From positions 22,249 to 86,248 of the IMG/VR virus record IMGVR_UViG_3300007504_000006: a DNA stretch of 64,000 bases; one strand, 5' to 3'. The stretch is from a virus. Shown one piece after another: positions 6,601 to 22,605 of the stretch. Position 1 is the stretch's first letter; every line of letters starts with the position of its first letter. The notes beneath the pieces are model-generated. The model did no database searches and was not told where the DNA came from. It worked only from the letters and a program-made list of their open reading frames with translations. The position numbers were made by a program, and so were the translations under genes.

Positions 6601-9216
6601 TGCTACATTAACTGTATTAGCCGGTGTTGTAACATCTTCAAACTCCCAATCTGCATGAGTAGCGTCTCCTGGATTCGAAATAGTAAATCTTACAGTTAAT
6701 GGCACAGCAGGAGATGCTCCGCCTTCTAATGGAGAATTAGTAAATGCCGCACCTTGAACATATGTATTATTTTTTATATTTTTAATAGTTTCGTTTAACC
6801 CATCCATTGCATCAGTTATAGTACCAGTAACGTCAAACCCAGATAACAATGTGCCTCCACTATAAGTAGAACTTTTTTGATAATAGGCTCCGTCGTTAAA
6901 TGTTGTATCAGTTGGTGCTCCTAACGCACCACCTCCGCCTCCAGCTGAAGCAGGAGAATTTATCCAAGCCGCTCCATCCCAAGTTAATACATCGTTGGCT
7001 TGAACACTTGTTATAGTTGTATCTGTTAATCCTACTACAGTTCCTGCGGCACCTGCTTGATTTATCCATTTGTTATTTGAAGAATCCCACGTTAATACAT
7101 CTCCTCCTGAAGGAGTTGTTATTGTAGTATCAGTTAATCCTGATACAGTTAATGCACCTGCATCTGTTAAATCTACTTCAGTTTGTTCATAACTCATCCA
7201 GTATGGTTTTCCGTCTGCTTTTGTATAAAAATATCCACCTTCACCATCTGCTGGTTGTGTTGGCGTAGACCCTTGTTCGGTTGATATATGAATTAATCCG
7301 CCAACATTTACAGAAGTATTAAATCCCCACATGTCTGTAGTTTTACTCCAGGTAATAGTTTTATCTGATGCGGCTTTAAGTATAATACCGCCTCCATCTG
7401 CTGTGTCATTTGTTGGGGTTCCTACTGTTCCTATTTCAATATGTATATCATCTACTTGAAGAGTAGTACTGTTTACAATTGTTTGAGTTCCGTTGACTGT
7501 AAGATTACCATTAACAATTAAATCATCAAATGTTACATCATCTGTTGTGTTTAAATCTTGATCAAAAATTGTTGCTGTAAGAGTGCCATTAACAATTAAA
7601 TCATTAAATGTTACATCATCTGTTGTGTTTAAAGTTTGATCATAACTAGAAACTGTAGCCCATGTTCTATCGCCTTTTAAAAATTTAACTTCGTCTCCTG
7701 CTACTGGTGCAGGTACTAAACCTTCTGTTCCGTCTGTAGTAGATGTTGCTCCTCCAAATGGAGCTCCACCAGCATAGTTGTTTGCGTGTATTTCTTTAGG
7801 AATACCTGATTGATCTTGTGTCCAATCTATGTGTTGATCTGCGGACCAATTTGTTAATTGATTATGATCCCAGTCAGAATTAACATATGTTGTATTAGGT
7901 GGTACTGCCCATACACCTGTTGCACTTAAATATTTTAATTGATCTCCTGCTACTGGTGCAGGAACAAATCCATATGCTCCATTTACTGACGAAGATGCTC
8001 CGGAAAAATTACTTGGTTTGTTTGTTAAGTCATCATAACTACCGCTAAACAAATTAGGTTTATTTGTTAAGTCATTATAGTTTCCTGAAAATGCATCTAA
8101 TATTCCATATCCTGCAATAGTTGTTGGTACTTCAGTTAAATTAGCAAATACACCATTAAATACATTATCCCCCGAGCCTACCGGAGTTGACCATGAACCT
8201 AAGTGATTTAAAAATTGACCATCAGATCCACCGGGCGGTAACCATTGTGAAACAATATGCGAATGTGTAGATGTTCCGCCGCCAGTACCGGAGCCTGTTC
8301 CCCCTCCACCACCTCCTGTGGTAGTGCCTGTTGTAGTTTCAGAAATAGTAATAGGTAAACCAGTTTGTGGTGCTTCTGTTGTAGTTGTTGTTGAAATTAA
8401 TGTACTAAGTTGAGCATATTCTGTTTCAGGTGTAGTTTTAACAACATACTGTTCAACAGGTGTACTAGCATCAATAGTAGTATCTGTTTCTTGTTTTACT
8501 AAATTAATAATTCTGCGTCTGTCAATTTCAGATATATCTTTTATAAATTTAGTAGTTTCTTTATAATAAGCATATTGGGCTTGCTGTTGAGCAGTTTTAT
8601 CAACACCACCATCTTTATTTTTAAGAGTAAGATAATTTTTTCTTATATATTGAATACCTTCGTTCCGTAACCATGACCTAGGTTTCATGCTACCATAGTT
8701 ACATAATCTAAACAATGACGCTTCTGCAATTCTACGAGTAGGAGTTCTGTTATCTATTTGTATTGCAGATGATACTTGGTCAATAGTACCTTTTTGAATA
8801 AAATAAATTAAATCAAATTCATATCCTTCAGTCTGGGTATAATCGATTGAACCAGTATCATAAAACATACTAACTAAAGCATCCCATTGATGCTGTAAAA
8901 CAAATTCAGGACTATTGTTTAACCGTTTGCGAAGATTATTTTGTGCTTTAGTAACATCTGTAATCCATAATCTATATGCATTTGTTTCTGTTATACCATT
9001 AGGAAAAGCATCACCAGAATATCTATAACCCATTACATATTTTTCACCATCCCAATGGCGATGGCCGCGATATAATTCTTTACCTAACATAAAGTTAAGT
9101 CCGGCGTCACTTATTGCGGCTGTCTTGGTGTTTATAGGAGTAGAAGAATAATGAGGTGATAATGATTGATCATCATAATTTATCTCTATCGGTAATTCTT
9201 TATATCTAGTAGCCAT
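3634..9216 (-). CDS. 1860 aa virion protein: N-terminal GH24 lysozyme-like domain, T/G-rich linker, fibre repeats, PKD/Ig-like domains
   Basis: ISDAGLNFMLGKE..WD..MGY, QHQWDALVSMFYDTG and RRIAEASLF resemble phage lysozyme motifs. WDWGD/WDFGD PKD-type motifs and LTDTTIT repeats follow. Confidence 0.75.
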   Translation of the reverse strand: MATRYKELPIEINYDDQSLSPHYSSTPINTKTAAISDAGLNFMLGKELYRGHRHWDGEKYVMGYRYSGDAFPNGITETNAYRLWITDVTKAQNNLRKRLNNSPEFVLQHQWDALVSMFYDTGSIDYTQTEGYEFDLIYFIQKGTIDQVSSAIQIDNRTPTRRIAEASLFRLCNYGSMKPRSWLRNEGIQYIRKNYLTLKNKDGGVDKTAQQQAQYAYYKETTKFIKDISEIDRRRIINLVKQETDTTIDASTPVEQYVVKTTPETEYAQLSTLISTTTTTEAPQTGLPITISETTTGTTTGGGGGGTGSGTGGGTSTHSHIVSQWLPPGGSDGQFLNHLGSWSTPVGSGDNVFNGVFANLTEVPTTIAGYGILDAFSGNYNDLTNKPNLFSGSYDDLTNKPSNFSGASSSVNGAYGFVPAPVAGDQLKYLSATGVWAVPPNTTYVNSDWDHNQLTNWSADQHIDWTQDQSGIPKEIHANNYAGGAPFGGATSTTDGTEGLVPAPVAGDEVKFLKGDRTWATVSSYDQTLNTTDDVTFNDLIVNGTLTATIFDQDLNTTDDVTFDDLIVNGNLTVNGTQTIVNSTTLQVDDIHIEIGTVGTPTNDTADGGGIILKAASDKTITWSKTTDMWGFNTSVNVGGLIHISTEQGSTPTQPADGEGGYFYTKADGKPYWMSYEQTEVDLTDAGALTVSGLTDTTITTPSGGDVLTWDSSNNKWINQAGAAGTVVGLTDTTITSVQANDVLTWDGAAWINSPASAGGGGGALGAPTDTTFNDGAYYQKSSTYSGGTLLSGFDVTGTITDAMDGLNETIKNIKNNTYVQGAAFTNSPLEGGASPAVPLTVRFTISNPGDATHADWEFEDVTTPANTVNVANDTTTISNGYYDQSFTSVAGGDINVTMTLKCQSATGTTGLTEGSYSIYKKDAAVELWTPAPEPAWTTTNNDTVVDLGGPQAGREIEFDTSASLYTHYWMIEFGDGSKFPASANTNGDNAHVESNWIEWASTKTHTYDYDVGGNTVTADTQWSPKVWCRSTTAQGGVGATASLEKTDHISGYIEPVASFNVNNLITGNNDESGDTNAQGATNTQEGHPVRFTNTSANLGTWGDTTFTWDWGDSTSDTVVTGGSNVDGDYLNDIEHYFTLADDLVAETFDVTLKAQNLRGSNNSDTTSVTTITVNVDPRAGFSGAFTNQNTSANGSPDYVDPRIGFDFIKYDPVNGGADANGASNIVQFTGSSTGLTDNGVSLNPAYSWDFGDSNTSSAENPTNTYTNTGSPLLRTVKLITSTDNSYAGGTDDTENKADYIEIRKAPTAPDGLTGSTINPPSSVGTQPHICDDTDDNTAGSSAPPASTAVNRQVTSSMVSDTTQWSNEFPSNGTYAGTLKAHINESADGSPDGMVVFNGSPQVNRYDSSGNVDASGQLEITAERDANLLNHNTYPDNFYKEFVAKVHFPTVPIGYNTMQLKHDDGTSTYQAKWVYDDMTDVPTIAGWGTSVAGTATYRYMSGIAFYNTGASISITGQTLSNLTGQTYRYTTTPLTISNDTGTAISTQTYTHDDMLPPSVKTHTNLHGYVPNKNVGVSTPVTLNDLTVNINGSGLGKDGKIKSRAENVNGSGANVTDTTKLMYWIESPTLDEAALPNNITVGAAVSGAPDLIRINGPWTGTDHDYPAYTDTSNNYYTTYAWDSQNDTLPGTNEAGCYLNEIKHTLEDFSSGYLPANADLGGGGRLSSVTQYFTMCFQRNSMAKFAIKISGKVSSLYIAFPGYDTDNTSGLNGWLDCSTLYGGAEFPGSNTGAGGNGSDGVRRQGTAADQGAFAVNTVLTNAYANLDLGTANTGLATHKHVLVRFGIENGDSVTAISVEDWS
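7506..7641. repeat. Near-identical intragenic tandem duplication (DQxLNTTDDVTFxDLIVNG x2)
   Basis: ccattaacaattaaatcat.aaatgttacatcatctgttgtgtttaa occurs twice, ~78 nt apart. Confidence 0.8.
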
Positions 9217-9219
9217 TCA

Positions 9220-10434
9220 TTAACCTGCAAACCCCGGTGTTAAACCTTCACCTAGTGGCATTAATTTTTTATCTTCGTGTCCTAACCATGGTTCATGCTC
9301 AGGTACTCTTGTACATACACTTTGTAATACACTAACATTTCCGACTAATGGAGCAGGCTCTGGAGGAACTGCATCTGTAGCACTACCACCATTTAAATCT
9401 AATCTTGCCGCTTTAACAGTAGTTTGACCAGCAGTTATAAGACTTCCATCTAAGTCTGCTTGTATAACATAATTCATAGCAGTTTTCATTTGAAAGTCAC
9501 CTGTTGTAGCATTTATATTAATTCCATCTGAACCTTCTGCTCTTATTTTTATACTACCCTTTGATTGTATATTAATGTCTCCGTCAACATGTAAATTAAA
9601 ATCTTTAAGTGAATGATAAGATATATCGTCTGTACAAAACACATCCATTTTGCCTTCATTAGTAAGTTCTACCCAAGCAGTTCCATCTCTGTTAATAATA
9701 TATACTATTCCTTTTTCGTCATTAAGTAATAATTGGGCACCACCAGCAGTTCGTAATCGTATACCTTTATCGATACCTGCATCATCTCCATCATCCATTA
9801 CAAATTGATGTTGTTCTGGTGTTAGAATACCAAATACTCTACTAGGACTTTCTCTTCTAGCACCGCTAGTACATGTTCCTCTAATTGCATCATATTGAGC
9901 TAATGAAAGAAGTCCCTGTAATTCAAGAGCTTCTTTCATTGGCTTATGAGCAGGGCGTAATGTAGGTAATTTATCATACTTGTTTTTTTCTGCACCAGGT
10001 GCTGGTCCTTCATATGTCATAGCAGACGGAATACCCGGTACTGTAAAATTAACATTTTCTTGGAAGAAACAACCTAACCAAACTCCTTCGTTTAAATCTC
10101 CATTAATAAAACCTACTAACCCTTCTGTTTCTATAGTAGGCGGAACCATCCACATACCGTAAGCAGTTTGGGTGTCTTTAAATGCAGTAGACATTGGTTT
10201 TTGTAAGTACGGATTAGATGCTCCAGCAAACGGTGACAAATATCTAACACTAATCCATGTATCTTCTCTAGAAGGATGTCCAATTTCAGGTATATAAACT
10301 TGTAATCTACCCATAGCGGCCGAATCAAGAGTTCGTTTAATATATGCTCTATACATATAGGGCATAGATCTAATCTTAATATTACTACCACCACTTCCGT
10401 TTACTGCTACCTGTGTTTTAAATTCTACTGCCAT
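9220..10434 (-). CDS. gp5: Baseplate central spike, gp5/VgrG-like (OB fold plus beta-helix, no internal lysozyme)
   Basis: D..MGRLQVYIPE, YLSPFAG, YGMWMVPP, GVWLGCF, HQFVMDDGD, IRLRTAGGAQLLLND and C-terminal RVPEHEPW; baseplate context. Confidence 0.8.
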   Translation of the reverse strand: MAVEFKTQVAVNGSGGSNIKIRSMPYMYRAYIKRTLDSAAMGRLQVYIPEIGHPSREDTWISVRYLSPFAGASNPYLQKPMSTAFKDTQTAYGMWMVPPTIETEGLVGFINGDLNEGVWLGCFFQENVNFTVPGIPSAMTYEGPAPGAEKNKYDKLPTLRPAHKPMKEALELQGLLSLAQYDAIRGTCTSGARRESPSRVFGILTPEQHQFVMDDGDDAGIDKGIRLRTAGGAQLLLNDEKGIVYIINRDGTAWVELTNEGKMDVFCTDDISYHSLKDFNLHVDGDINIQSKGSIKIRAEGSDGININATTGDFQMKTAMNYVIQADLDGSLITAGQTTVKAARLDLNGGSATDAVPPEPAPLVGNVSVLQSVCTRVPEHEPWLGHEDKKLMPLGEGLTPGFAG

Positions 10435-16574: not shown

Positions 16575-17322
16575 TAATATTAATATTAATTCCGATATTG
16601 GAACTGATGCAAGTTTTTTTAATCCATTTGGTCCTAATATTTTATATTATAAATTACAACCCGATGTTTTAAAAAAAACATTAGATTGTGTAAATGCATA
16701 CCGAAGTGATCGAGAATATATCGAAGAATTAAAAACCAAAGGACAAATAATCCAAGGAACTAGATCACAAGAAAGTCAATCAAATTCTATTGTTAGTGGT
16801 GAAATGCTACTAATAGAACAAGAGTTTCAAGAAAAACATTTTGATAATATTATTCAAGATATTATTAATATAACTAGTTATAATTATGGATTACAATCTG
16901 CTAAATTTAGTGTATTCGATATGGGTATGCGAGATATACAAGACGAATATATAAAAGAAATTGACGAAGATATATCGTCATTGAAAGTTTCTATTAAAGA
17001 TTGTTGGTTTGTTGTTTTAAAAGAAGGAGATTTCCATATTTTACATGAACATCATTATGGAGGAGCAATTCTTAGTGGAGCAATTTATTTAGATGTACCT
17101 GAAAAGCCGTGGCCTCAAGGTAATATTAATTGGATAGTTAATGGAGTTTCAACTCATATGTTTAACTCTAGTTGGGGATTACAACCAACCACAGGAGATG
17201 TTTTTATGTGGCCGTCTTGGATTAAACATTCAGTGTATCCTTTTAAAGGAGAAGGAGAACGAATTATGATATCGTTTAATGCAACCCTTTTACGTGCAAG
17301 AGATAAAAAAAATGACAAATAA
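16564..17322 (+). CDS. Putative 2OG-Fe(II) oxygenase (paralog 2)
   Basis: Same motifs and same length (252 aa) as the upstream gene. Confidence 0.75.
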   Translation: MLYSNININSDIGTDASFFNPFGPNILYYKLQPDVLKKTLDCVNAYRSDREYIEELKTKGQIIQGTRSQESQSNSIVSGEMLLIEQEFQEKHFDNIIQDIINITSYNYGLQSAKFSVFDMGMRDIQDEYIKEIDEDISSLKVSIKDCWFVVLKEGDFHILHEHHYGGAILSGAIYLDVPEKPWPQGNINWIVNGVSTHMFNSSWGLQPTTGDVFMWPSWIKHSVYPFKGEGERIMISFNATLLRARDKKNDK

Positions 17323-18340
17323 TTTATTTAAAAAAGTAGCATGTTTTACAGATATACATTTTGGTTTAAGAAATAATAGTAGATTACACAATACAGATTG
17401 TGAAGAATTTATTAAATGGTTTATTGAAGAAGCTAAAAAAGAAAAATGTGAAACTTGTATATTTTTAGGTGATTGGCATCATCATAGGGCATCTATTAAT
17501 GTTAGCACATTAAATTATACAATGTCTAATTTAGAATTTTTATCTAAAGCATTTACAAATGTATTTGTTATAATGGGCAATCATGATTTATTTTACAGAG
17601 ATAAACGAGAAATTAATAGTGTAGCATTTGGTGGATTATATGATAATGTACATATTGTAAATAGTATTTTTACAGAAGGTGATGTTAGCATTGTTCCATG
17701 GTTGGTACAAGACGAATGGAAGGAAATGCCTAATATAAAATCTAGGTATATATTTGGTCATTTCGAATTAGGCGGATTTCAAATGAATCAACTTGTAGCA
17801 ATGCCAGAAAATGGAGGATTGGGACAACAACATTTTAAAAATCAAGAATATGTTTTTAGCGGTCACTTTCATAATAGACAACAACAAAAAAATGTAGTGT
17901 ATATAGGTAATACTTTTCCACATAATTATTCTGATACTTGGCAAGATAATAGAGGAATGATGATATTAGAATGGGGTAAAGAACCACAATATACTGCATG
18001 GCCAAATGCACCATCATTTAAAACAATTAATCTTAGTAAATTAATTGATGCACCAGAAAAATATTTAAAACCAAAAACATATATAAGAGTAACATTAGAC
18101 ATAGATATTTCATATGAAGAAGCAACTCATATTAAACAAGCATTTACAGACGAATATAAATTACGAGAAATAGTATTATTACCAGAACGAGAGGACGAAC
18201 ACGAGGTAGATTGGTCCGAAGGAGAGGTTCCAAAATTTGAATCTGTAGATCAAATAGTATTAAGCGAACTTTCTACTATTAAATCGACCCATATTGATAA
18301 CAATAAATTGGTTGACATCTATAACAATCTGACTGTATAA
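17312..18340 (+). CDS. gp47: Recombination endonuclease subunit (Mre11/SbcD-like)
   Basis: DIHFG, GDWHH, GNHD, GHFE and SGHFH phosphoesterase motifs; likely start is the ATG at 17312. Confidence 0.92.
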   Translation: MTNNLFKKVACFTDIHFGLRNNSRLHNTDCEEFIKWFIEEAKKEKCETCIFLGDWHHHRASINVSTLNYTMSNLEFLSKAFTNVFVIMGNHDLFYRDKREINSVAFGGLYDNVHIVNSIFTEGDVSIVPWLVQDEWKEMPNIKSRYIFGHFELGGFQMNQLVAMPENGGLGQQHFKNQEYVFSGHFHNRQQQKNVVYIGNTFPHNYSDTWQDNRGMMILEWGKEPQYTAWPNAPSFKTINLSKLIDAPEKYLKPKTYIRVTLDIDISYEEATHIKQAFTDEYKLREIVLLPEREDEHEVDWSEGEVPKFESVDQIVLSELSTIKSTHIDNNKLVDIYNNLTV

Positions 18341-18349: not shown

Positions 18350-20083
18350 ATGCTTACTATCAAAGAAATTACCATCAAGAATTTTATGAGTGTTGGTAAT
18401 GTAACACAAGGAGTTCTTTTAAACGATACTGGTTTAACTTTAGTTCTTGGAAACAATTTAGATTTAGGCGGAGACGGGTCACGCAATGGTACAGGAAAAA
18501 CAACTCTTGTAAATGCGTTATCTTATGGTCTATTTGGTCTTCCATTAACTAATATCAGACGTGATAATTTAATCAATAAAACCAATGGCAAACATATGCT
18601 TGTCACGATTGAATTTTCATGCAATCGTGTAACGTATAGAATTGAACGAGGACGTAAACCAGGTATATTAAAATTTTATGTTAACGACTCTGAACAAATA
18701 GATGAAACAGACGAAGGACAAGGTGAAAGTAAATTAACACAAAAGCAAATAGATAAAGTTCTAGGTATGACACATAATATGTTTAAACATGTTATGGCAC
18801 TTAATACATACACAGAACCTTTTCTTGCTATGAAACAAAATGATCAACGAAACTTAATAGAAGAATTGTTAGGTATTACTTTACTTTCAGAAAAAGCGGC
18901 ATTATTAAAAGAATTAGTTAAAGAAACAAAAGATAACCATAAAGAAGAAGAATACAGAATAGGTGGAATTCAACAAGCAAATGAACAAATAGAAAGTTCT
19001 ATTAACGATTTACAACGTCGAAGTGATTTGTGGGACAGGAAGCATAAAGAAAATATAGAAGAATTAAAAAATAAATTACTAGAATTATCTGAAGTAGATA
19101 TAGATATAGAATTGCAAGCTCATAAGGACTTAGAAGCATATAGTGAGCTTCAAAGAAAAACGTCGCAATTAGACGGGAATATTGCACAAATTGACACCAA
19201 AATCTCCAAGTTAAATCAAGACCTATCAAGTATAAAAGATGATGCATGTTACGTATGTGGAAAACCATTAGATGATGAGTTGCATAAAAAACTATTAAAA
19301 ACAAAAGAAGATAAATTAAAAAATTATACAGAAGAAGTGTCTGAGTATAAACGAGAAAGAGAAGACCTAGGATCGTTAGGCAAGCAACCAATTACCCATT
19401 ATGATAAAATAAGCGATGCATATAATCACAAAACAACATTAGATACGTTATCAAATCAATTAGAAAGTAAATTAACAGAAACAAATCAGTACATAGAACA
19501 AATAGAAACACTTCAAGATAAAGGATTACAAGAAATAAATTGGAACAAAATTAACGAATTAAATAATTTAAAAGAACACCAAGAATTTTTATTAAAGCTT
19601 CTTACAAATAAGGATTCTTTTATAAGAAAGAAGATTATAGACCAAAACTTAGCATATTTAAATACAAGGCTTAAATATTACTTACAAAAACTAGGTCTAC
19701 CACATTATGTAAATTTTCAAAGTGATTTAACTGTAGAAATTACAGAGCATGGAAGAGATTTAGATTTTGATAACTTATCACGAGGAGAGCGTAATAGGCT
19801 TATACTAGGTTTAAGTTTCTCGTTTAGGGATATATTTGAATCTATGAATACTCCAATTAATTTAATGTTTATAGACGAATTAATTGACTCCGGAATGGAC
19901 ACAACCGGAGTTGAGTCTGCATTGGCTGAGCTTAAAAGAATTACAAGGGAACGAAATAAAAATATATTTTTAATTTCACATAAAGACGAACTTGTAGGAC
20001 GAGTAAATGATATATTAAATGTAGTTAAAGAAGATGGATTTACATCATTTAGTTGCGATAAGGAAGTACTAGAACATGTCTGA
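18350..20083 (+). CDS. gp46: Recombination ATPase subunit (Rad50/SbcC-like)
   Basis: Walker A NGTGKTT, coiled coil with CYVC zinc hook, LSRGE signature, FIDELID Walker B, ISH. Confidence 0.93.
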   Translation: MLTIKEITIKNFMSVGNVTQGVLLNDTGLTLVLGNNLDLGGDGSRNGTGKTTLVNALSYGLFGLPLTNIRRDNLINKTNGKHMLVTIEFSCNRVTYRIERGRKPGILKFYVNDSEQIDETDEGQGESKLTQKQIDKVLGMTHNMFKHVMALNTYTEPFLAMKQNDQRNLIEELLGITLLSEKAALLKELVKETKDNHKEEEYRIGGIQQANEQIESSINDLQRRSDLWDRKHKENIEELKNKLLELSEVDIDIELQAHKDLEAYSELQRKTSQLDGNIAQIDTKISKLNQDLSSIKDDACYVCGKPLDDELHKKLLKTKEDKLKNYTEEVSEYKREREDLGSLGKQPITHYDKISDAYNHKTTLDTLSNQLESKLTETNQYIEQIETLQDKGLQEINWNKINELNNLKEHQEFLLKLLTNKDSFIRKKIIDQNLAYLNTRLKYYLQKLGLPHYVNFQSDLTVEITEHGRDLDFDNLSRGERNRLILGLSFSFRDIFESMNTPINLMFIDELIDSGMDTTGVESALAELKRITRERNKNIFLISHKDELVGRVNDILNVVKEDGFTSFSCDKEVLEHV

Positions 20084-20279
20084 AACACCATGGATTGATA
20101 GAAGATCATTATTAGACATAACTCAACAATCTAGAGGAGGAGCTGGATTGGCACCATTAGATATGGGATATGTATACGTCTTTAAAAACGGAGAAACCAG
20201 ACATTGTTTAGATGACTCGGAGGCATATAACTTTTATGCAGATAACAAAGAACGACTTGACTCAGAACCAACAATTTAA
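20076..20279 (+). CDS. Hypothetical protein, 67 aa
   Basis: Overlaps the gp46 stop codon; in operon. Confidence 0.55.
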   Translation: MSETPWIDRRSLLDITQQSRGGAGLAPLDMGYVYVFKNGETRHCLDDSEAYNFYADNKERLDSEPTI

Positions 20280-20988
20280 ATTTTTTATAGCGGCCCCGTT
20301 TGGCAATTATATTAAACATAAAAATGCAATTAATGTTAGAGGTTCTTTTACAATATTACGTAGACCAGGATTAATTAAACAACTATTTAGAACTCTTAGA
20401 TATGATTTTTCTAAAAAAGGATGGAAGAACGAATTAGGACTCCGTAATCCGGGTATAAAACACGGACTTAATAAATACAGAAACAACGGCAAAGAAGTTA
20501 TAAGTATTGCCGCAATTATGCCTAGAGATTGGGGTGACTTTGCAAAAGACATACCCGATCATGTAAACTTAGAATTAAATTTAAGTTGTCCAAATATCGA
20601 TAAAGTAGAAATAGATTATAAAGCTCTTACTAAGTTTTATAATGCATTTTGGGATAATAAACGAGAATGGTGTATAGCCAAAATATCGCCCCTATCTACA
20701 GAGGACGAAATCAAGCGATTATTAGACATTGGGTTTGGTCAGATCCACTGCTCCAACACCCTCCCTATTACTGGCGGAGGATTGAGCGGAAAGGAATTGA
20801 TAAGTTACACGATCAAACTCATAGATTACATAAAGACACACTTTCCCTCAGTGAAGATTATCGCAGGAGGAGGGATTGATCATATAGATATTGTAAATTA
20901 CTATAAAGGTAAAGGTGCAGATTATTTCAGTTTAGGAACTGTATGTTTTACACCTTGGAAATTATCAAAAATACTTAATGCCAAGTAA
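20257..20988 (+). CDS. Dihydroorotate dehydrogenase-like FMN TIM-barrel protein (start uncertain, 20212-20257)
   Basis: N.LGLRNPG, ELNLSCPN, KISP, SNTL, GGLSG and IIAGGGI motifs of class 1 DHODH. Confidence 0.75.
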   Translation: MTQNQQFKFFIAAPFGNYIKHKNAINVRGSFTILRRPGLIKQLFRTLRYDFSKKGWKNELGLRNPGIKHGLNKYRNNGKEVISIAAIMPRDWGDFAKDIPDHVNLELNLSCPNIDKVEIDYKALTKFYNAFWDNKREWCIAKISPLSTEDEIKRLLDIGFGQIHCSNTLPITGGGLSGKELISYTIKLIDYIKTHFPSVKIIAGGGIDHIDIVNYYKGKGADYFSLGTVCFTPWKLSKILNAK

Positions 20989-21508
20989 AAGTAAAATAAA
21001 AGGCAGTTCATTTGAAAGAGAAATAGCAAAAGAACTATCGGATTTATATAATGAGAGCTTTGTAAGAACTCCATCGTCGGGTGCTTATGTTGGCGGCTCT
21101 AATGTTGCAAGAAAAGATTTTTTATCCGAGGGTCAGGTACAATCCTTCAGAGGAGACATAATACCACCCGACGACTGGAAATATTTTAATGTTGAATGTA
21201 AATCGTATGCTGATTTCCCTTTCCACCAATTACTATACCAAGGCGATATTAGACTATTAGATGAATGGATAGAACAAATACTAGAAGTGGCAGAAGAAAA
21301 AGATTTAAACTTATTGATACTAAAATTTAACCGCAAAGGCAAATACATAGGCTTCCAAGAACACTTACTTAATTCCTCATTTTATACATATAGACACGCA
21401 AATTATAAAGGCTGGATTTTTACAAGCTACAAAGATTTTATGGAACAAAACAATGGCTCAATTAAATACCTCTCAGTTGAAGGGGTACCACAGCCTCTAT
21501 TGTCGTAA
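20978..21508 (+). CDS. Holliday junction resolvase (PD-(D/E)xK)
   Basis: SK.KGSSFERE.AK.L, F.RTPSSGA, GDII and VECK motifs. Confidence 0.8.
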   Translation: MPSKSKIKGSSFEREIAKELSDLYNESFVRTPSSGAYVGGSNVARKDFLSEGQVQSFRGDIIPPDDWKYFNVECKSYADFPFHQLLYQGDIRLLDEWIEQILEVAEEKDLNLLILKFNRKGKYIGFQEHLLNSSFYTYRHANYKGWIFTSYKDFMEQNNGSIKYLSVEGVPQPLLS

Positions 21509-21510
21509 GA

Positions 21511-21850
21511 CCGGTTGAGAACGAGTACGCTCGTTCGGATCTCCGTGGCAAAAGCAGAAAAAATGAGTAGGCTCTCCTGACAATTGGAACCTACAAGGTA
21601 TATAAGGTAGATCTAATTGCTTTATATAAACCTGCGTTGGATAAGCAGAACGTAAAAAGGTACAGCCCAACCGCCTTAACCTATTTGGTTGTTCTATTAG
21701 AATGTGCTATGTCCGAAGGAAATAGTTATCTTAGCCTTAAACAGGCTAAGTGTGACTTGACTCTCAGGAAATAGTTAAATAGTAATAGTATAAATTCGAT
21801 CTGAATTACGAAGTAATGAAAGATCGTGATGAGCTTTAGCTCATCATTAA
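21511..21850 (+). ncRNA. Candidate structured ncRNA (or structured origin), family unassigned
   Basis: No ORF; at least 7 stems, including a UACG-capped hairpin and G-U-containing helices, plus a 12-nt direct repeat. Confidence 0.6.
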
Positions 21851-21860
21851 AGGAAGGTAA

Positions 21861-22382
21861 ATGAAACTAACAGAATTTGATTATCCTCAAATATACTGCG
21901 ACATGGACGGCGTTTTAGTAGATTTAATAGAAGGTGCAACAAAAATATTAGGTTATAATTTTGCTGAACGTTATGGTTACGTTTCAGGAAAGCACGAACT
22001 ATGGGATAAATTAGCAGAAGAAAAATTATTTTGGGCAGAGTTACCTCCTATGCCTGATATGAAACAACTTTGGGGATTTATATCAACTTTCCAACCTTAT
22101 ATATTAACCGCTGTTCCTGCTGTTCGGTTAATATGGGATCCTCCAGCAGGAATTCAAAAAGCAATGTGGTGTGAAAAAAACTTAGGTATTAGCAAAGATA
22201 GAGTGTATGCTGTAAAACGCTCAGATAAAAAACACTTTGCTAAATCGCACGACGGTCGACCTAATATATTAATTGATGACCATCAACAAAATATTAATGA
22301 ATGGAATAAAGCAGGAGGAAAAGGAATACTCCACACATCTGCAAGTAACAGTATTAAACAATTAGAAGGTATTGGCTTCTAA
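21861..22382 (+). CDS. HAD-family 5'(3')-nucleotidase-like protein
   Basis: IYCDMDGVLVD, ILTA, K..W and ILIDD...NINEW..AGG.GILH motifs. Confidence 0.85.
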   Translation: MKLTEFDYPQIYCDMDGVLVDLIEGATKILGYNFAERYGYVSGKHELWDKLAEEKLFWAELPPMPDMKQLWGFISTFQPYILTAVPAVRLIWDPPAGIQKAMWCEKNLGISKDRVYAVKRSDKKHFAKSHDGRPNILIDDHQQNINEWNKAGGKGILHTSASNSIKQLEGIGF

Positions 22383-22558
22383 AGATTTTGTTGCTGTTTC
22401 TTTCCTGCCTTTGCATCAAGTTTTTGTTTAACAATTTCAAAAAACATTTCTCTTTCATCATAGGTCAACATCCACATATCATTGTATGATATCATTCCAT
22501 CTGAAAACACAACCAGTTCCATTAAATTCTTTTGAAAGGCTCTTACATCATCTTTCAT
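22379..22558 (-). CDS. gp51-like baseplate hub/tail assembly chaperone, 59 aa (missing from the ORF track); probably also the -1 frameshift extension of the upstream gene
   Basis: MKDDVRAFQKNLMELVVFSDGMISYNDMWMLTYDEREMFFEIVKQKLDAKAGKKQQQNL*; the frame stays open upstream to the T-TTT-TTC site. Confidence 0.75.
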   Translation of the reverse strand: MKDDVRAFQKNLMELVVFSDGMISYNDMWMLTYDEREMFFEIVKQKLDAKAGKKQQQNL

Positions 22559-22605
22559 TTCTTGTAAGATTTCCTGAATTTCGTCAGGAGTTGATTGTAA
22601 GAGCC

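What the first reader, a model, noticed from the sequence alone, without database searches (positions are those of the whole stretch)
21511..21850. Densely structured ~340 nt non-coding element: candidate large phage ncRNA or replication origin
Seen: this is the only long ORF-free gap in a tightly packed genome, and much of it can base-pair. Stems include GAACGAG-TACG-CTCGTTC (21519-21536), GTAGG/CCTAC (21567-21594), a 12-bp helix with several G-U pairs (21599-21628), AAGG/CCTT (21657-21677) whose loop CCAAC can pair with GTTGG (21636-21640), CTTAGCCT/AGGCTAAG (21730-21750) extended by AGTTAT/GTGACT, CGATCT/AGATCG enclosing ATTAC-GAA-GTAAT, and TGATGAGCT/AGCTCATCA. AGGAAATAGTTA occurs twice (21717, 21766), and TCCTGA/TCAGGA offers a long-range pairing. 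Inference: the G-U wobbles work on the + strand, which favours a + strand RNA over a DNA cruciform. It does not look like a tRNA, tmRNA or group II intron domain V. Its position right after the gp47-gp46-resolvase block also fits an RNA-primed origin.
Basis: partly seen in the sequence, partly recalled or inferred. Interest (0 to 1): 0.8.

Follow-up and report, generated by a model that had tools for sequence, protein, structure and literature searches.

The report
Large knotted twin-box phage RNA
The only gene-free gap in this stretch of an uncultured marine T4-like giant phage encodes a real, intricately folded non-coding RNA of about 270 bases. It belongs to a widespread phage RNA family of which only an optional front part was ever catalogued, and its job is still unknown.

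Summary
Window 21509-21860 is the only ORF-free gap over 250 nt in 64 kb. It folds far better than shuffles (z -5.9 on +, -4.0 on -) and is conserved in over 150 viral and metagenome contigs.

An unfitted MAFFT alignment of 57 sequences gives 51 pairs at 93.5% pairing, against 34-44% for slid controls. These include two covarying pseudoknots and a kissing-loop pair. Invariant G.U pairs place the RNA on the + strand.

The core (21557-21777) has no Rfam match. In freshwater relatives the same core is preceded by the orphan motif Polynucleobacter-1 (RF01718), and the flanks of that motif's published alignment already contain this core. So the catalogued motif is an optional 5' domain of a larger uncatalogued RNA. 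This window is a marine variant that has a short hairpin domain in its place.

The RNA always follows the gp47-gp46-small nuclease block (PDDEXK_15 or SegE-like GIY-YIG). The downstream gene varies and is often on the other strand, so it is not a leader. GC skew gives no support for an origin.

A 12-nt word occurs twice (21717, 21766). Both copies change together between lineages, and no partner was found. Function is unknown.

Earlier agents of this scan reached the same reading on freshwater phages.

The parts
20978..21508 (+). Upstream neighbour: PDDEXK_15 small nuclease gene. Context only, not part of the RNA.
   Evidence: Pfam PF24608 E=1.4e-26. In other lineages the same position holds a SegE-like GIY-YIG domain-only protein of 140-156 aa.
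21509..21556 (+). Short 5' domain: TTGAG, hairpin P1 (21519-21536, UACG loop), then CGGATCTCCGTGGCA. It stands where some relatives carry the Polynucleobacter-1 domain.
   Evidence: Alifold on 12 relatives: 8-bp stem with GC/AU/UA exchanges. The same TTGAG-hairpin-GGATC arrangement is seen in distant lineages. No RF01718 match here even at E<=10.
21567..21594 (+). P2 hairpin: outer 21567-71/21590-94, inner 21575-77/21586-88.
   Evidence: 99% and 98% of cells paired; 6 of 8 pairs change on both sides.
21597..21632 (+). P3 long hairpin (21597-21607 with 21620-21632). Its apical loop 21610-21617 is the 5' strand of pseudoknot PK1.
   Evidence: CM-fitted alignment: 6 of 6 plus 3 of 3 pairs with double changes. 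On the MAFFT-only alignment 81% paired, 5 of 5 covary.
21633..21647 (+). P4 hairpin (21633-35/21645-47). Its loop GTTGG (21636-40) kisses the P5 loop.
   Evidence: Stem 88% paired. Kissing pairs 97% paired; pair 21640-21667 shows UA 22, GC 17, CG 7, AU 5.
21648..21651 (+). P6 5' strand (GAAC). It pairs with 21691-21694 and closes a three-way junction around P5 and PF.
   Evidence: 4 of 4 pairs change on both sides, 92% paired.
21657..21677 (+). P5 hairpin with the near-invariant loop TACAGCCCAACCG. CCAAC (21667-71) is the kissing partner.
   Evidence: 100% paired, 3 of 5 pairs covary, U.G invariant in 57 of 57.
21678..21690 (+). PF small hairpin (AACC/GGTT). Its loop is of variable length and carries a 29-nt insert in some relatives.
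   Evidence: Pairs 21680-88 and 21681-87 are 98% paired, one covaries. A 29-nt insert in L004/L006/L009/L016 breaks any reading frame.
21691..21702 (+). P6 3' strand (21691-94), directly followed by the PK1 3' strand (21696-21702).
   Evidence: PK1: 7 of 7 pairs with double changes, 93% paired. Complementary runs of 6-13 nt with unrelated sequences in nearly all of the ~60 representatives.
21703..21728 (+). Repeat module a: TGTG (21703-06), a spacer that can form a local hairpin, then twin box copy 1 AGGAAATAGTTA (21717-28).
21730..21750 (+). PG hairpin CTTAGCC/GGCTAAG.
   Evidence: 96% paired, G.U/A-U/U-A exchanges.
21751..21777 (+). Repeat module b: TGTG (21751-54), spacer, then twin box copy 2 AGGAAATAGTTA (21766-77). 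Probable 3' part of the RNA.
   Evidence: A shared word of 7 nt or more between modules a and b in 37 of 53 parsed representatives, against about 10% between different RNAs and 5% after shuffling. At least 12 distinct words.
21789..21795 (+). TATAAAT, like a T4 late promoter. Probably starts the downstream gene's transcript (inferred).
   Evidence: Read in the sequence. TATAAATA or near variants sit at the same place in L017 and other relatives. Function not tested.
21797..21846 (+). Two flanking hairpins (21797-21826 and 21827-21846). They are outside the family core and are a terminator, a 3' protection element or a leader element.
   Evidence: Compensatory changes among close relatives, including + strand G.U. 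Comparable hairpins follow the RNA where the next gene is on the other strand.

Best explanation
SHOWN. The gap is the gene for a + strand, free-standing structured non-coding RNA. It runs from about 21509 to about 21780, with its core at 21557-21777. It belongs to a large, virus-restricted family carried by T4-like giant phages of sea and fresh water, always behind the gp55-gp47-gp46-small nuclease gene run.

The core is a compact fold. Hairpin P2 comes first. The long hairpin P3 has an apical loop that pairs with a strand 80 nt downstream (PK1). P4 and P5 have loops that kiss. P6 closes a three-way junction around P5 and PF. P3/P4, P4/P6 and P6/PK1 abut without linkers, so they can stack.

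The catalogued Polynucleobacter-1 motif is an alternative 5' domain of the same RNA in other lineages. This window has a short UACG-hairpin domain in its place.

INFERRED (about 0.3-0.4). The folded core acts as a scaffold. Its 3' region presents two identical 7-13-nt words, which co-vary between lineages, to a two-fold partner. That partner would be either a nucleic acid read by base pairing or a dimeric protein. The RNA would act in trans during early or middle infection, transcribed with or just after the recombination operon.
For: Conservation: nucleotide identity in the gap is as high as protein identity of the flanking genes (87.5% nt against 86% aa in L004).

Family size: 71 viral contigs match the signature pattern, about 68 of them true. 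Only 1 of 42 hits in 185,579 species genomes is real, and it is a 3-kb MAG contig.

Structure: on the CM-fitted alignment, 94.7% paired, 25 of 27 pairs with double changes, covariation 0.62 against 0.05-0.14 when slid. On the MAFFT-only alignment with pseudoknots, 93.5% against 34-44%, covariation 0.50 against 0.07-0.10, 0 of 500 shuffles as good.

Strand: invariant U.G (57 of 57) and frequent G.U pairs exist on + only. The + strand z-score is better.

Not a leader: the downstream gene is NT5C-like, an unknown protein, or the reverse-strand baseplate hub.

Not coding: a 29-nt indel lies inside the only 45-aa ORF.

Link to Polynucleobacter-1: 45-56 bits (threshold 37) immediately 5' of the core in L057/L078/L089. 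The 3' flanks in the published alignment contain the core motifs.

Twin box.

RNA libraries: a 521-nt contig from an rRNA-depleted marine metatranscriptome covers 21317-21784 at about 91% identity. This is weak, because DNA carry-over is not excluded.
Against: No raw-read evidence for transcription, RNA ends or abundance; only contigs were available.

No sigma-70 promoter or intrinsic terminator was found around the element, so the transcription unit is inferred.

No partner for the twin box was found within +-450 nt in any lineage or in the 86 kb of this genome that is held, which is 35% complete.

The structure of the 3' region differs between lineages, and a common closing helix is not supported.

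Related giant phages with the same nuclease gene lack the RNA. A 342-kb genome that is 92% complete gave 0 hits.
Confidence: 0.85

Rival explanations
1. The RNA is a partner of the adjacent catalytic-domain-only nuclease (PDDEXK_15 or SegE-like GIY-YIG). It would act as guide, activator or inhibitor, with the lineage-specific twin box as the specificity element.
For: In 14 of 15 lineages checked, the gene directly upstream on the same strand is a 140-177-aa nuclease with no recognisable DNA-binding domain, 39-221 nt from the core. The twin box varies like a guide. HEARO RNA, first seen as a large RNA beside an HNH nuclease ORF, is the precedent (own knowledge).
Against: Two unrelated nuclease folds sit beside an essentially unchanged RNA core, which is hard to reconcile with a specific RNP. 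L060 has a different 102-aa gene upstream. PDDEXK_15 homologues at 49-56% identity occur in giant phages with no detectable RNA anywhere in a 342-kb genome. The block gp47-gp46-resolvase-like nuclease is an ordinary recombination module, so adjacency may be positional.
Confidence: 0.1
2. It is a cis-acting end of the recombination operon: a 3' UTR that stabilises, terminates or processes the gp55-47-46-nuclease transcript, with no function of its own.
For: Same strand as the upstream operon and directly behind it in every locus. A metatranscriptome contig runs from the nuclease ORF into the element. No promoter of its own was recognised.
Against: About 220 nt with two pseudoknots, a kissing pair and near-invariant loops conserved down to about 50% gp46 identity is far more than a stabiliser or terminator needs. 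No terminator-like site is present. Separate hairpins downstream are better terminator candidates.
Confidence: 0.07
3. It is a riboswitch or leader that controls the downstream NT5C-like nucleotidase gene.
For: It lies upstream of a nucleotide-metabolism gene in this window, with hairpins next to the ribosome-binding site.
Against: The downstream gene differs between lineages: NT5C-like, proteins with no family, or a reverse-strand baseplate hub gene. A late-promoter-like TATAAAT lies between the core and that gene. No Rfam riboswitch matches.
Confidence: 0.03
4. It is a replication origin, either a DNA element with iteron-like repeats or a structured pre-primer RNA.
For: Two direct repeats that co-vary between lineages resemble iterons. 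It lies next to recombination genes. ColE1 RNA II is a structured pre-primer (own knowledge).
Against: Cumulative GC skew turns at about 14-16 kb with gene orientation, not here. There are only two repeat copies. Selection acts on RNA pairs, including G.U pairs that would be C.A on the other strand. No AT-rich unwinding element stands out.
Confidence: 0.04

Closest known systems
Polynucleobacter-1 RNA motif (Rfam RF01718; Weinberg et al. 2010, Genome Biol 11:R31, PMC2864571)
   Same: It belongs to the same RNA gene in other lineages. In L057, L078 and L089 it lies immediately 5' of the core found here. The 3' flanks of its own published alignment carry the core's P2, P5 and PG motifs. The supplement notes that it lies downstream of genes with phage homologues. 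Its function is unknown.
   Different: The 141-nt catalogued motif is absent from this window, with no hit at E<=10; a 48-nt hairpin domain stands in its place. The roughly 220-nt core, its pseudoknots and the twin box are not part of the Rfam model or of the published description.
Large ornate bacterial and phage RNAs: GOLLD, ROOL, OLE, HEARO, raiA
   Same: It is a large, multi-pseudoknotted, orphan non-coding RNA found by comparative genomics and carried by phages. Conserved complementary loops could also act between molecules, as the kissing loops do in the GOLLD and ROOL cages (Kretsch et al. 2025, PMC12286853).
   Different: No sequence or structure match to any of their Rfam models. It is smaller, at 270-450 nt. 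Oligomerisation was not tested. No consistent tRNA or ORF association of the GOLLD or HEARO type.
phi29 packaging RNA (pRNA)
   Same: A phage-encoded structured RNA whose two loops are complementary over 4-5 nt (own knowledge).
   Different: Different phage group, with no packaging-motor context here. The two loops sit on adjacent hairpins 8 nt apart, so an intramolecular kiss is the simpler reading. No Rfam match.

Membership tests
Polynucleobacter-1 (RF01718) | Score at or above the Rfam gathering threshold (37 bits) against the 141-nt covariance model | tested here: not met
   Window: 0 hits at gathering and none at E<=10 over 21300-22000. Relatives L089, L078 and L057 score 56.3, 46.0 and 44.9 bits directly 5' of the shared core.
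Extended Polynucleobacter-1 / twin-box phage RNA (uncatalogued; defined here by model R1) | Match to the core model (P2, P3, P4, P5; 144 positions, 27 bp) | tested here: met
   Window 21557-21694 scores 134.3 bits, E about 1e-38. It is a seed member; 59 other representatives score 44-141 bits.
Extended Polynucleobacter-1 / twin-box phage RNA | PK1 (P3 loop with distal strand), P6 junction helix and P4/P5 loop-loop pairing | tested here: met
   21612-17/21696-21701 gives 6 bp in the window. Family-wide, 7 of 7, 4 of 4 and 1 of 5 pairs covary at 93%, 92% and 97% paired.
Extended Polynucleobacter-1 / twin-box phage RNA | A short word present twice in the 3' region, changing in step between lineages | tested here: met
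   AGGAAATAGTTA at 21717 and 21766. 37 of 53 representatives share a word of 7 nt or more, against about 10% between RNAs.
Extended Polynucleobacter-1 / twin-box phage RNA | Synteny: same strand, behind gp47-gp46-small nuclease, before the baseplate hub gene | tested here: met
Riboswitch / cis-regulatory leader | Constant position upstream of one gene family on the same strand | tested here: not met
   Downstream genes differ and are often on the opposite strand.
Known large RNAs and ribozymes in Rfam 15 (group I/II introns, RNase P, tmRNA, GOLLD, ROOL, HEARO, OLE, raiA and others) | Covariance-model match | tested here: not met
   No match in the window or in 11 related loci apart from RF01718. 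ARAGORN finds no tRNA or tmRNA.
Replication origin | GC-skew inflection, AT-rich unwinding element, multiple iterons | tested here: not met
   The skew minimum at about 14-16 kb follows gene strand. Only two repeats are present. The contig is 35% complete, so the skew test is weak.

The most novel reading that the evidence does not exclude
The RNA is a new functional class rather than a passive structure. Two readings remain open. One is a ribozyme or an RNA-only/RNP assembly built through its conserved complementary loops. The other is the programmable specificity subunit of the neighbouring domain-only nuclease, with the twin box read as a guide.
Probability: 0.15. Interest if true: 0.9.

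Novelty: new variant of a known kind. Interest (0 to 1): 0.68.

Why it matters
Large, multiply knotted non-coding RNAs are rare. Each one solved so far (RNase P, group I/II introns, HEARO as the IscB guide, the GOLLD and ROOL cages) revealed new biology.

This family is abundant in uncultured T4-like giant phages of oceans and lakes. It has a defined gene position, a rigid conserved core and a guide-like duplicated word. Yet only an optional 5' fragment was catalogued, in 2010, with no function.

The window shows that the catalogued part is dispensable and that the uncatalogued core defines the family. That redefines what should be modelled, searched for and tested.

A weak candidate copy in the cultured Agrobacterium phage Atu_ph07 may offer an experimental entry point.

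Tried and rejected
- Rfam at gathering and at E<=10: only a chance SNORD51 hit on the minus strand.
- blastn of the element against 50,697 phage records: no match, also with a second family member.
- Small ORF 21637-21774 (45 aa): rejected. A 29-nt indel in relatives breaks the frame, and substitutions are compensatory in stems.
- Group I intron, RNase P, tmRNA and SRP resemblances considered from memory: the helix order does not fit and no model matches.
- A proposed helix 21652-54/21703-05 (GUA with UGU): it varies on one side only and crosses P6, so it is left as tentative.
- TCCTGA/TCAGGA: present at fixed positions in about half the lineages, absent in others, and competes with the P2 inner helix. 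Not accepted as a family feature.
- Search for a cis partner of the twin box within +-450 nt in all representatives, and in the 86-kb record: none consistent.
- Idea that the two boxes face each other in a symmetric internal loop closed by a helix: the flanks pair no better than shuffles (4.0 against 3.7 nt).
- CsrA-type GGA sites: many lineages have GGU, GGC or no GG at all.
- Model R1 on whole records of PA5oct and two giant relatives, and on the gp46 loci of GAP32 and fHe-Yen9-04: no hits, and the hallmark motifs are absent from their syntenic gaps.
- RNA-seq: only assembled contigs with small word shares. X1-X3 cover fragments and X2 is chimeric. No ends, strand or level can be read.
- Supplement of the 10,006-csRNA virus survey (PMC10690425) is not held, so overlap with its unnamed DNAVirus_X motifs (29-151 nt) could not be checked.

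Full report
**What is there**

The window is part of an 86-kb IMG/VR virus record, estimated 35% complete. It belongs to a T4-like giant phage. By gp46, the closest isolates are Pseudomonas phage PA5oct (52%), Sinorhizobium phage Phosso and Agrobacterium phage Atu_ph07.

The genes around the finding are:
- gp47/Mre11-like, 17279-18340
- gp46/Rad50-like, 18350-20083
- a DHODH-like gene, 20212-20988
- a PDDEXK_15 nuclease, 20978-21508
- the 352-nt gap
- an NT5C-like nucleotidase, 21861-22382
- a reverse-strand T4-type baseplate gene

Once an open-ended 1210-aa minus-strand ORF is counted, the gap is the only ORF-free stretch over 250 nt in 64 kb. It folds at -104.7 kcal/mol on the + strand (z = -5.9). 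The minus strand gives -87.7 kcal/mol (z = -4.0). Rfam 15 gives nothing at gathering thresholds and only a chance snoRNA hit at E<=10. ARAGORN finds no tRNA or tmRNA.

**Conservation**

Thirty-nine viral contigs encode a relative of the nuclease. In 15 or more of them the sequence behind it matches the gap. Nucleotide identity there equals or exceeds the protein identity of the flanking genes, for example 87.5% nt against 86% aa.

A signature pattern taken from two invariant stretches (CTGCGYTG ... GTAYMGCNNAACCGC) gave these results:
- 71 viral contigs, about 68 of them true.
- 42 hits in 185,579 species genomes. Only one is real, and it is a 3-kb contig of a MAG.

The family is therefore widespread and virus-restricted.

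In every locus the element lies on the same strand behind gp47-gp46(-X) and before the reverse-strand baseplate hub gene. This holds down to about 50% gp46 identity.

The gene directly upstream is either PDDEXK_15 (176 aa) or a SegE-like GIY-YIG domain-only protein (140-156 aa). One lineage has another small gene there. The downstream gene varies and is often on the other strand.

**Structure**

For the family I used 57 representatives below 96% identity (A3, MAFFT only) and a covariance model of the 5' half of the core (R1, 144 positions, 27 bp).

On the model-fitted alignment:
- 94.7% of cells pair.
- 25 of 27 pairs change on both sides.
- The covariation score is 0.62, against 0.05-0.14 when partners are slid.

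On the unfitted MAFFT alignment with pseudoknots written in, 51 pairs give:
- 93.5% pairing, against 34-44% when slid and 76% when shuffled.
- Covariation 0.50, against 0.07-0.10.
- 0 of 500 shuffles as good.

The elements, in window coordinates:
- P1: 21519-36, a UACG-loop hairpin in the lineage-specific 5' domain.
- P2: 21567-71/21590-94, plus 21575-77/21586-88.
- P3: 21597-21607/21620-32.
- PK1: the P3 loop 21611-17 with 21696-21702. All 7 pairs covary, and complementary runs of 6-13 nt with unrelated sequences occur in nearly all of the ~60 representatives.
- P4: 21633-35/21645-47.
- Kissing pair: P4 loop GTTGG (21636-40) with P5 loop CCAAC (21667-71). One pair shows four Watson-Crick types.
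- P5: 21657-61/21673-77.
- P6: 21648-51/21691-94. All 4 pairs covary, and it closes a three-way junction with P5 and the small hairpin PF (21678-90).
- PG: 21730-36/21744-50.

P3/P4, P4/P6 and P6/PK1 abut without linkers, so the core can form long coaxial stacks locked by the two tertiary pairings.

An invariant U.G (57 of 57) and many G.U pairs exist only on the + strand. This settles the strand and argues for RNA rather than a DNA cruciform.

**Relation to the catalogued motif**

In three relatives (L057, L078, L089) the sequence immediately 5' of this core matches Rfam RF01718, Polynucleobacter-1, at 45-56 bits against a threshold of 37.

The 2010 supplement describes that motif as follows:
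- 141 nt, 16 representatives, from fresh water and estuaries.
- Located downstream of genes with a cyanophage homologue.
- Not found in purified phages, and with no function proposed.

The 3' flanks in its own Stockholm file contain the P2, P5 and PG sequences of the present core. The catalogued motif is therefore an optional 5' domain of a larger RNA whose conserved core was never modelled. The window has no RF01718 similarity and carries a 48-nt hairpin domain in its place. That arrangement is shared with several distant lineages.

**The twin box**

AGGAAATAGTTA occurs at 21717 and 21766. Each copy sits 11-13 nt after a TGTG that ends a helix strand: PK1 for the first copy, PG for the second.

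Across the family the word differs widely, with at least 12 variants. Some have no sequence in common. Yet both copies in one RNA agree: 37 of 53 representatives share 7 nt or more, against about 10% between different RNAs and 5% after shuffling.

I found no complementary partner within +-450 nt in any lineage, nor in the 86 kb held of this genome.

In this window the spacer CTATGTCC can pair with either copy, and the minimum-energy fold chooses the distal one. That does not generalise to other lineages. A common helix closing the two boxes into one internal loop is not supported either. The feature is real and unexplained. Two identical displayed words suggest a two-fold partner.

**What it is not**

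- Not coding. The only ORF (45 aa, TTG start) is broken by a 29-nt indel in relatives.
- Not a leader or riboswitch. The downstream gene is not constant, and a late-promoter-like TATAAAT (21789-95) separates the core from the nucleotidase gene.
- Not an origin on the evidence available. GC skew turns with gene strand at about 14-16 kb, and the selection seen is on RNA pairs.
- Probably more than an operon terminator. No terminator-like site is present, and the fold is far more elaborate than stabilisation needs. Co-transcription with the operon does remain likely.

Transcription evidence is weak. An rRNA-depleted marine metatranscriptome holds a 521-nt contig covering 21317-21784 at about 91% identity. 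Contigs show no ends or strand, and DNA carry-over cannot be excluded.

**Mechanism**

Shown: a conserved, + strand, multiply pseudoknotted RNA gene at a fixed genomic position in a phage clade.

Inferred, at about 0.3-0.4: a trans-acting scaffold that presents two identical words to a dimeric or base-pairing partner.

The neighbouring domain-only nucleases make an RNA-nuclease partnership tempting. Three observations count against it:
- Two unrelated nuclease folds flank the same core.
- One lineage has no adjacent nuclease.
- PDDEXK_15 occurs without the RNA in a 92%-complete 342-kb relative.

I give that reading about 0.1.

**Cultured phages**

R1 finds nothing in PA5oct, in two giant uncultured relatives, or at the gp46 loci of GAP32 and fHe-Yen9-04, whose syntenic gaps lack the hallmark motifs.

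Atu_ph07 gives one weak hit: 24.9 bits, at NC_042013 490102-490274 on the minus strand. It lies in an unannotated gap of about 600 bp. It has a P2-like hairpin, GGGTACAGGACAACCGCC, and GCGTAAGC-type hairpins downstream like those behind family members. This is a lead, not a finding.

**Earlier notes of this scan**

After finishing the analysis above I looked up earlier notes. Several follow-up agents had reached the same reading on freshwater phages: a full-length Polynucleobacter-1 'twin-box' RNA behind a small nuclease, function unknown. My results agree independently. They add that a marine lineage lacks the catalogued domain altogether. One note's claim of copies in cultured enterobacterial jumbo phages was not reproduced with my model.

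Noticed in passing
window 21789-21846: A T4 late-promoter-like TATAAAT, followed by two covarying hairpins (21797-21826, 21827-21846) and the ribosome-binding site of the NT5C-like gene. Relatives and Atu_ph07 carry GCGTAAGC-type (GNRA-loop) hairpins at the same relative place, even where the next gene is on the other strand.
   Followed up: partly
loci L077, L185, L201, L065, L261, L064, L172, L262, L246, L282, L062, L171 and others, 78-221 nt upstream of the core: The motif GGCTAAYA overlaps or follows the stop codon of the upstream nuclease gene in 15 of 56 lineages, against 1 of 56 downstream. It occurs whether the nuclease is GIY-YIG or PDDEXK, and L062 has three copies. Possibly a promoter or processing signal for the RNA. 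It is absent from this window.
   Followed up: partly
window 20978-21508 versus L097:4202-4645 and similar: Non-orthologous replacement at one locus. Either a PDDEXK_15 nuclease (176 aa) or a SegE-like GIY-YIG catalytic domain alone (140-156 aa) sits between gp46 and the RNA.
   Followed up: partly
L289 (NC_042013.1, Atu_ph07) 489783-490380: An unannotated gap of about 600 bp at the record end of a cultured giant phage. It has a weak match to the core model and begins GACCGGAATG, like the window's GACCGGTTGAG.
   Followed up: partly
window 20212-20988: A dihydroorotate-dehydrogenase-like gene (PF01180, E=6e-10) sits between gp46 and the nuclease and overlaps the nuclease start by 11 nt. It is an unusual auxiliary gene inside a recombination module and is conserved in the nearest relatives.
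   Followed up: no
L120 (PA5oct) 7017-8531; L290 (GAP32) 8651-9456; L291 (fHe-Yen9-04) 8650-9401: Cultured giant phages have gaps of 0.75-1.5 kb, or runs of tiny hypothetical ORFs, at the syntenic place between the resolvase gene and the baseplate genes. Neither the core model nor its hallmark motifs were found there, so they may hold something else.
   Followed up: partly
window 22383-22605: The second-longest stretch without an ORF of 60 aa or more (223 nt). It is covered only by a 59-aa minus-strand ORF next to the baseplate gene. Another first-stage note proposes a frameshift here.
   Followed up: no
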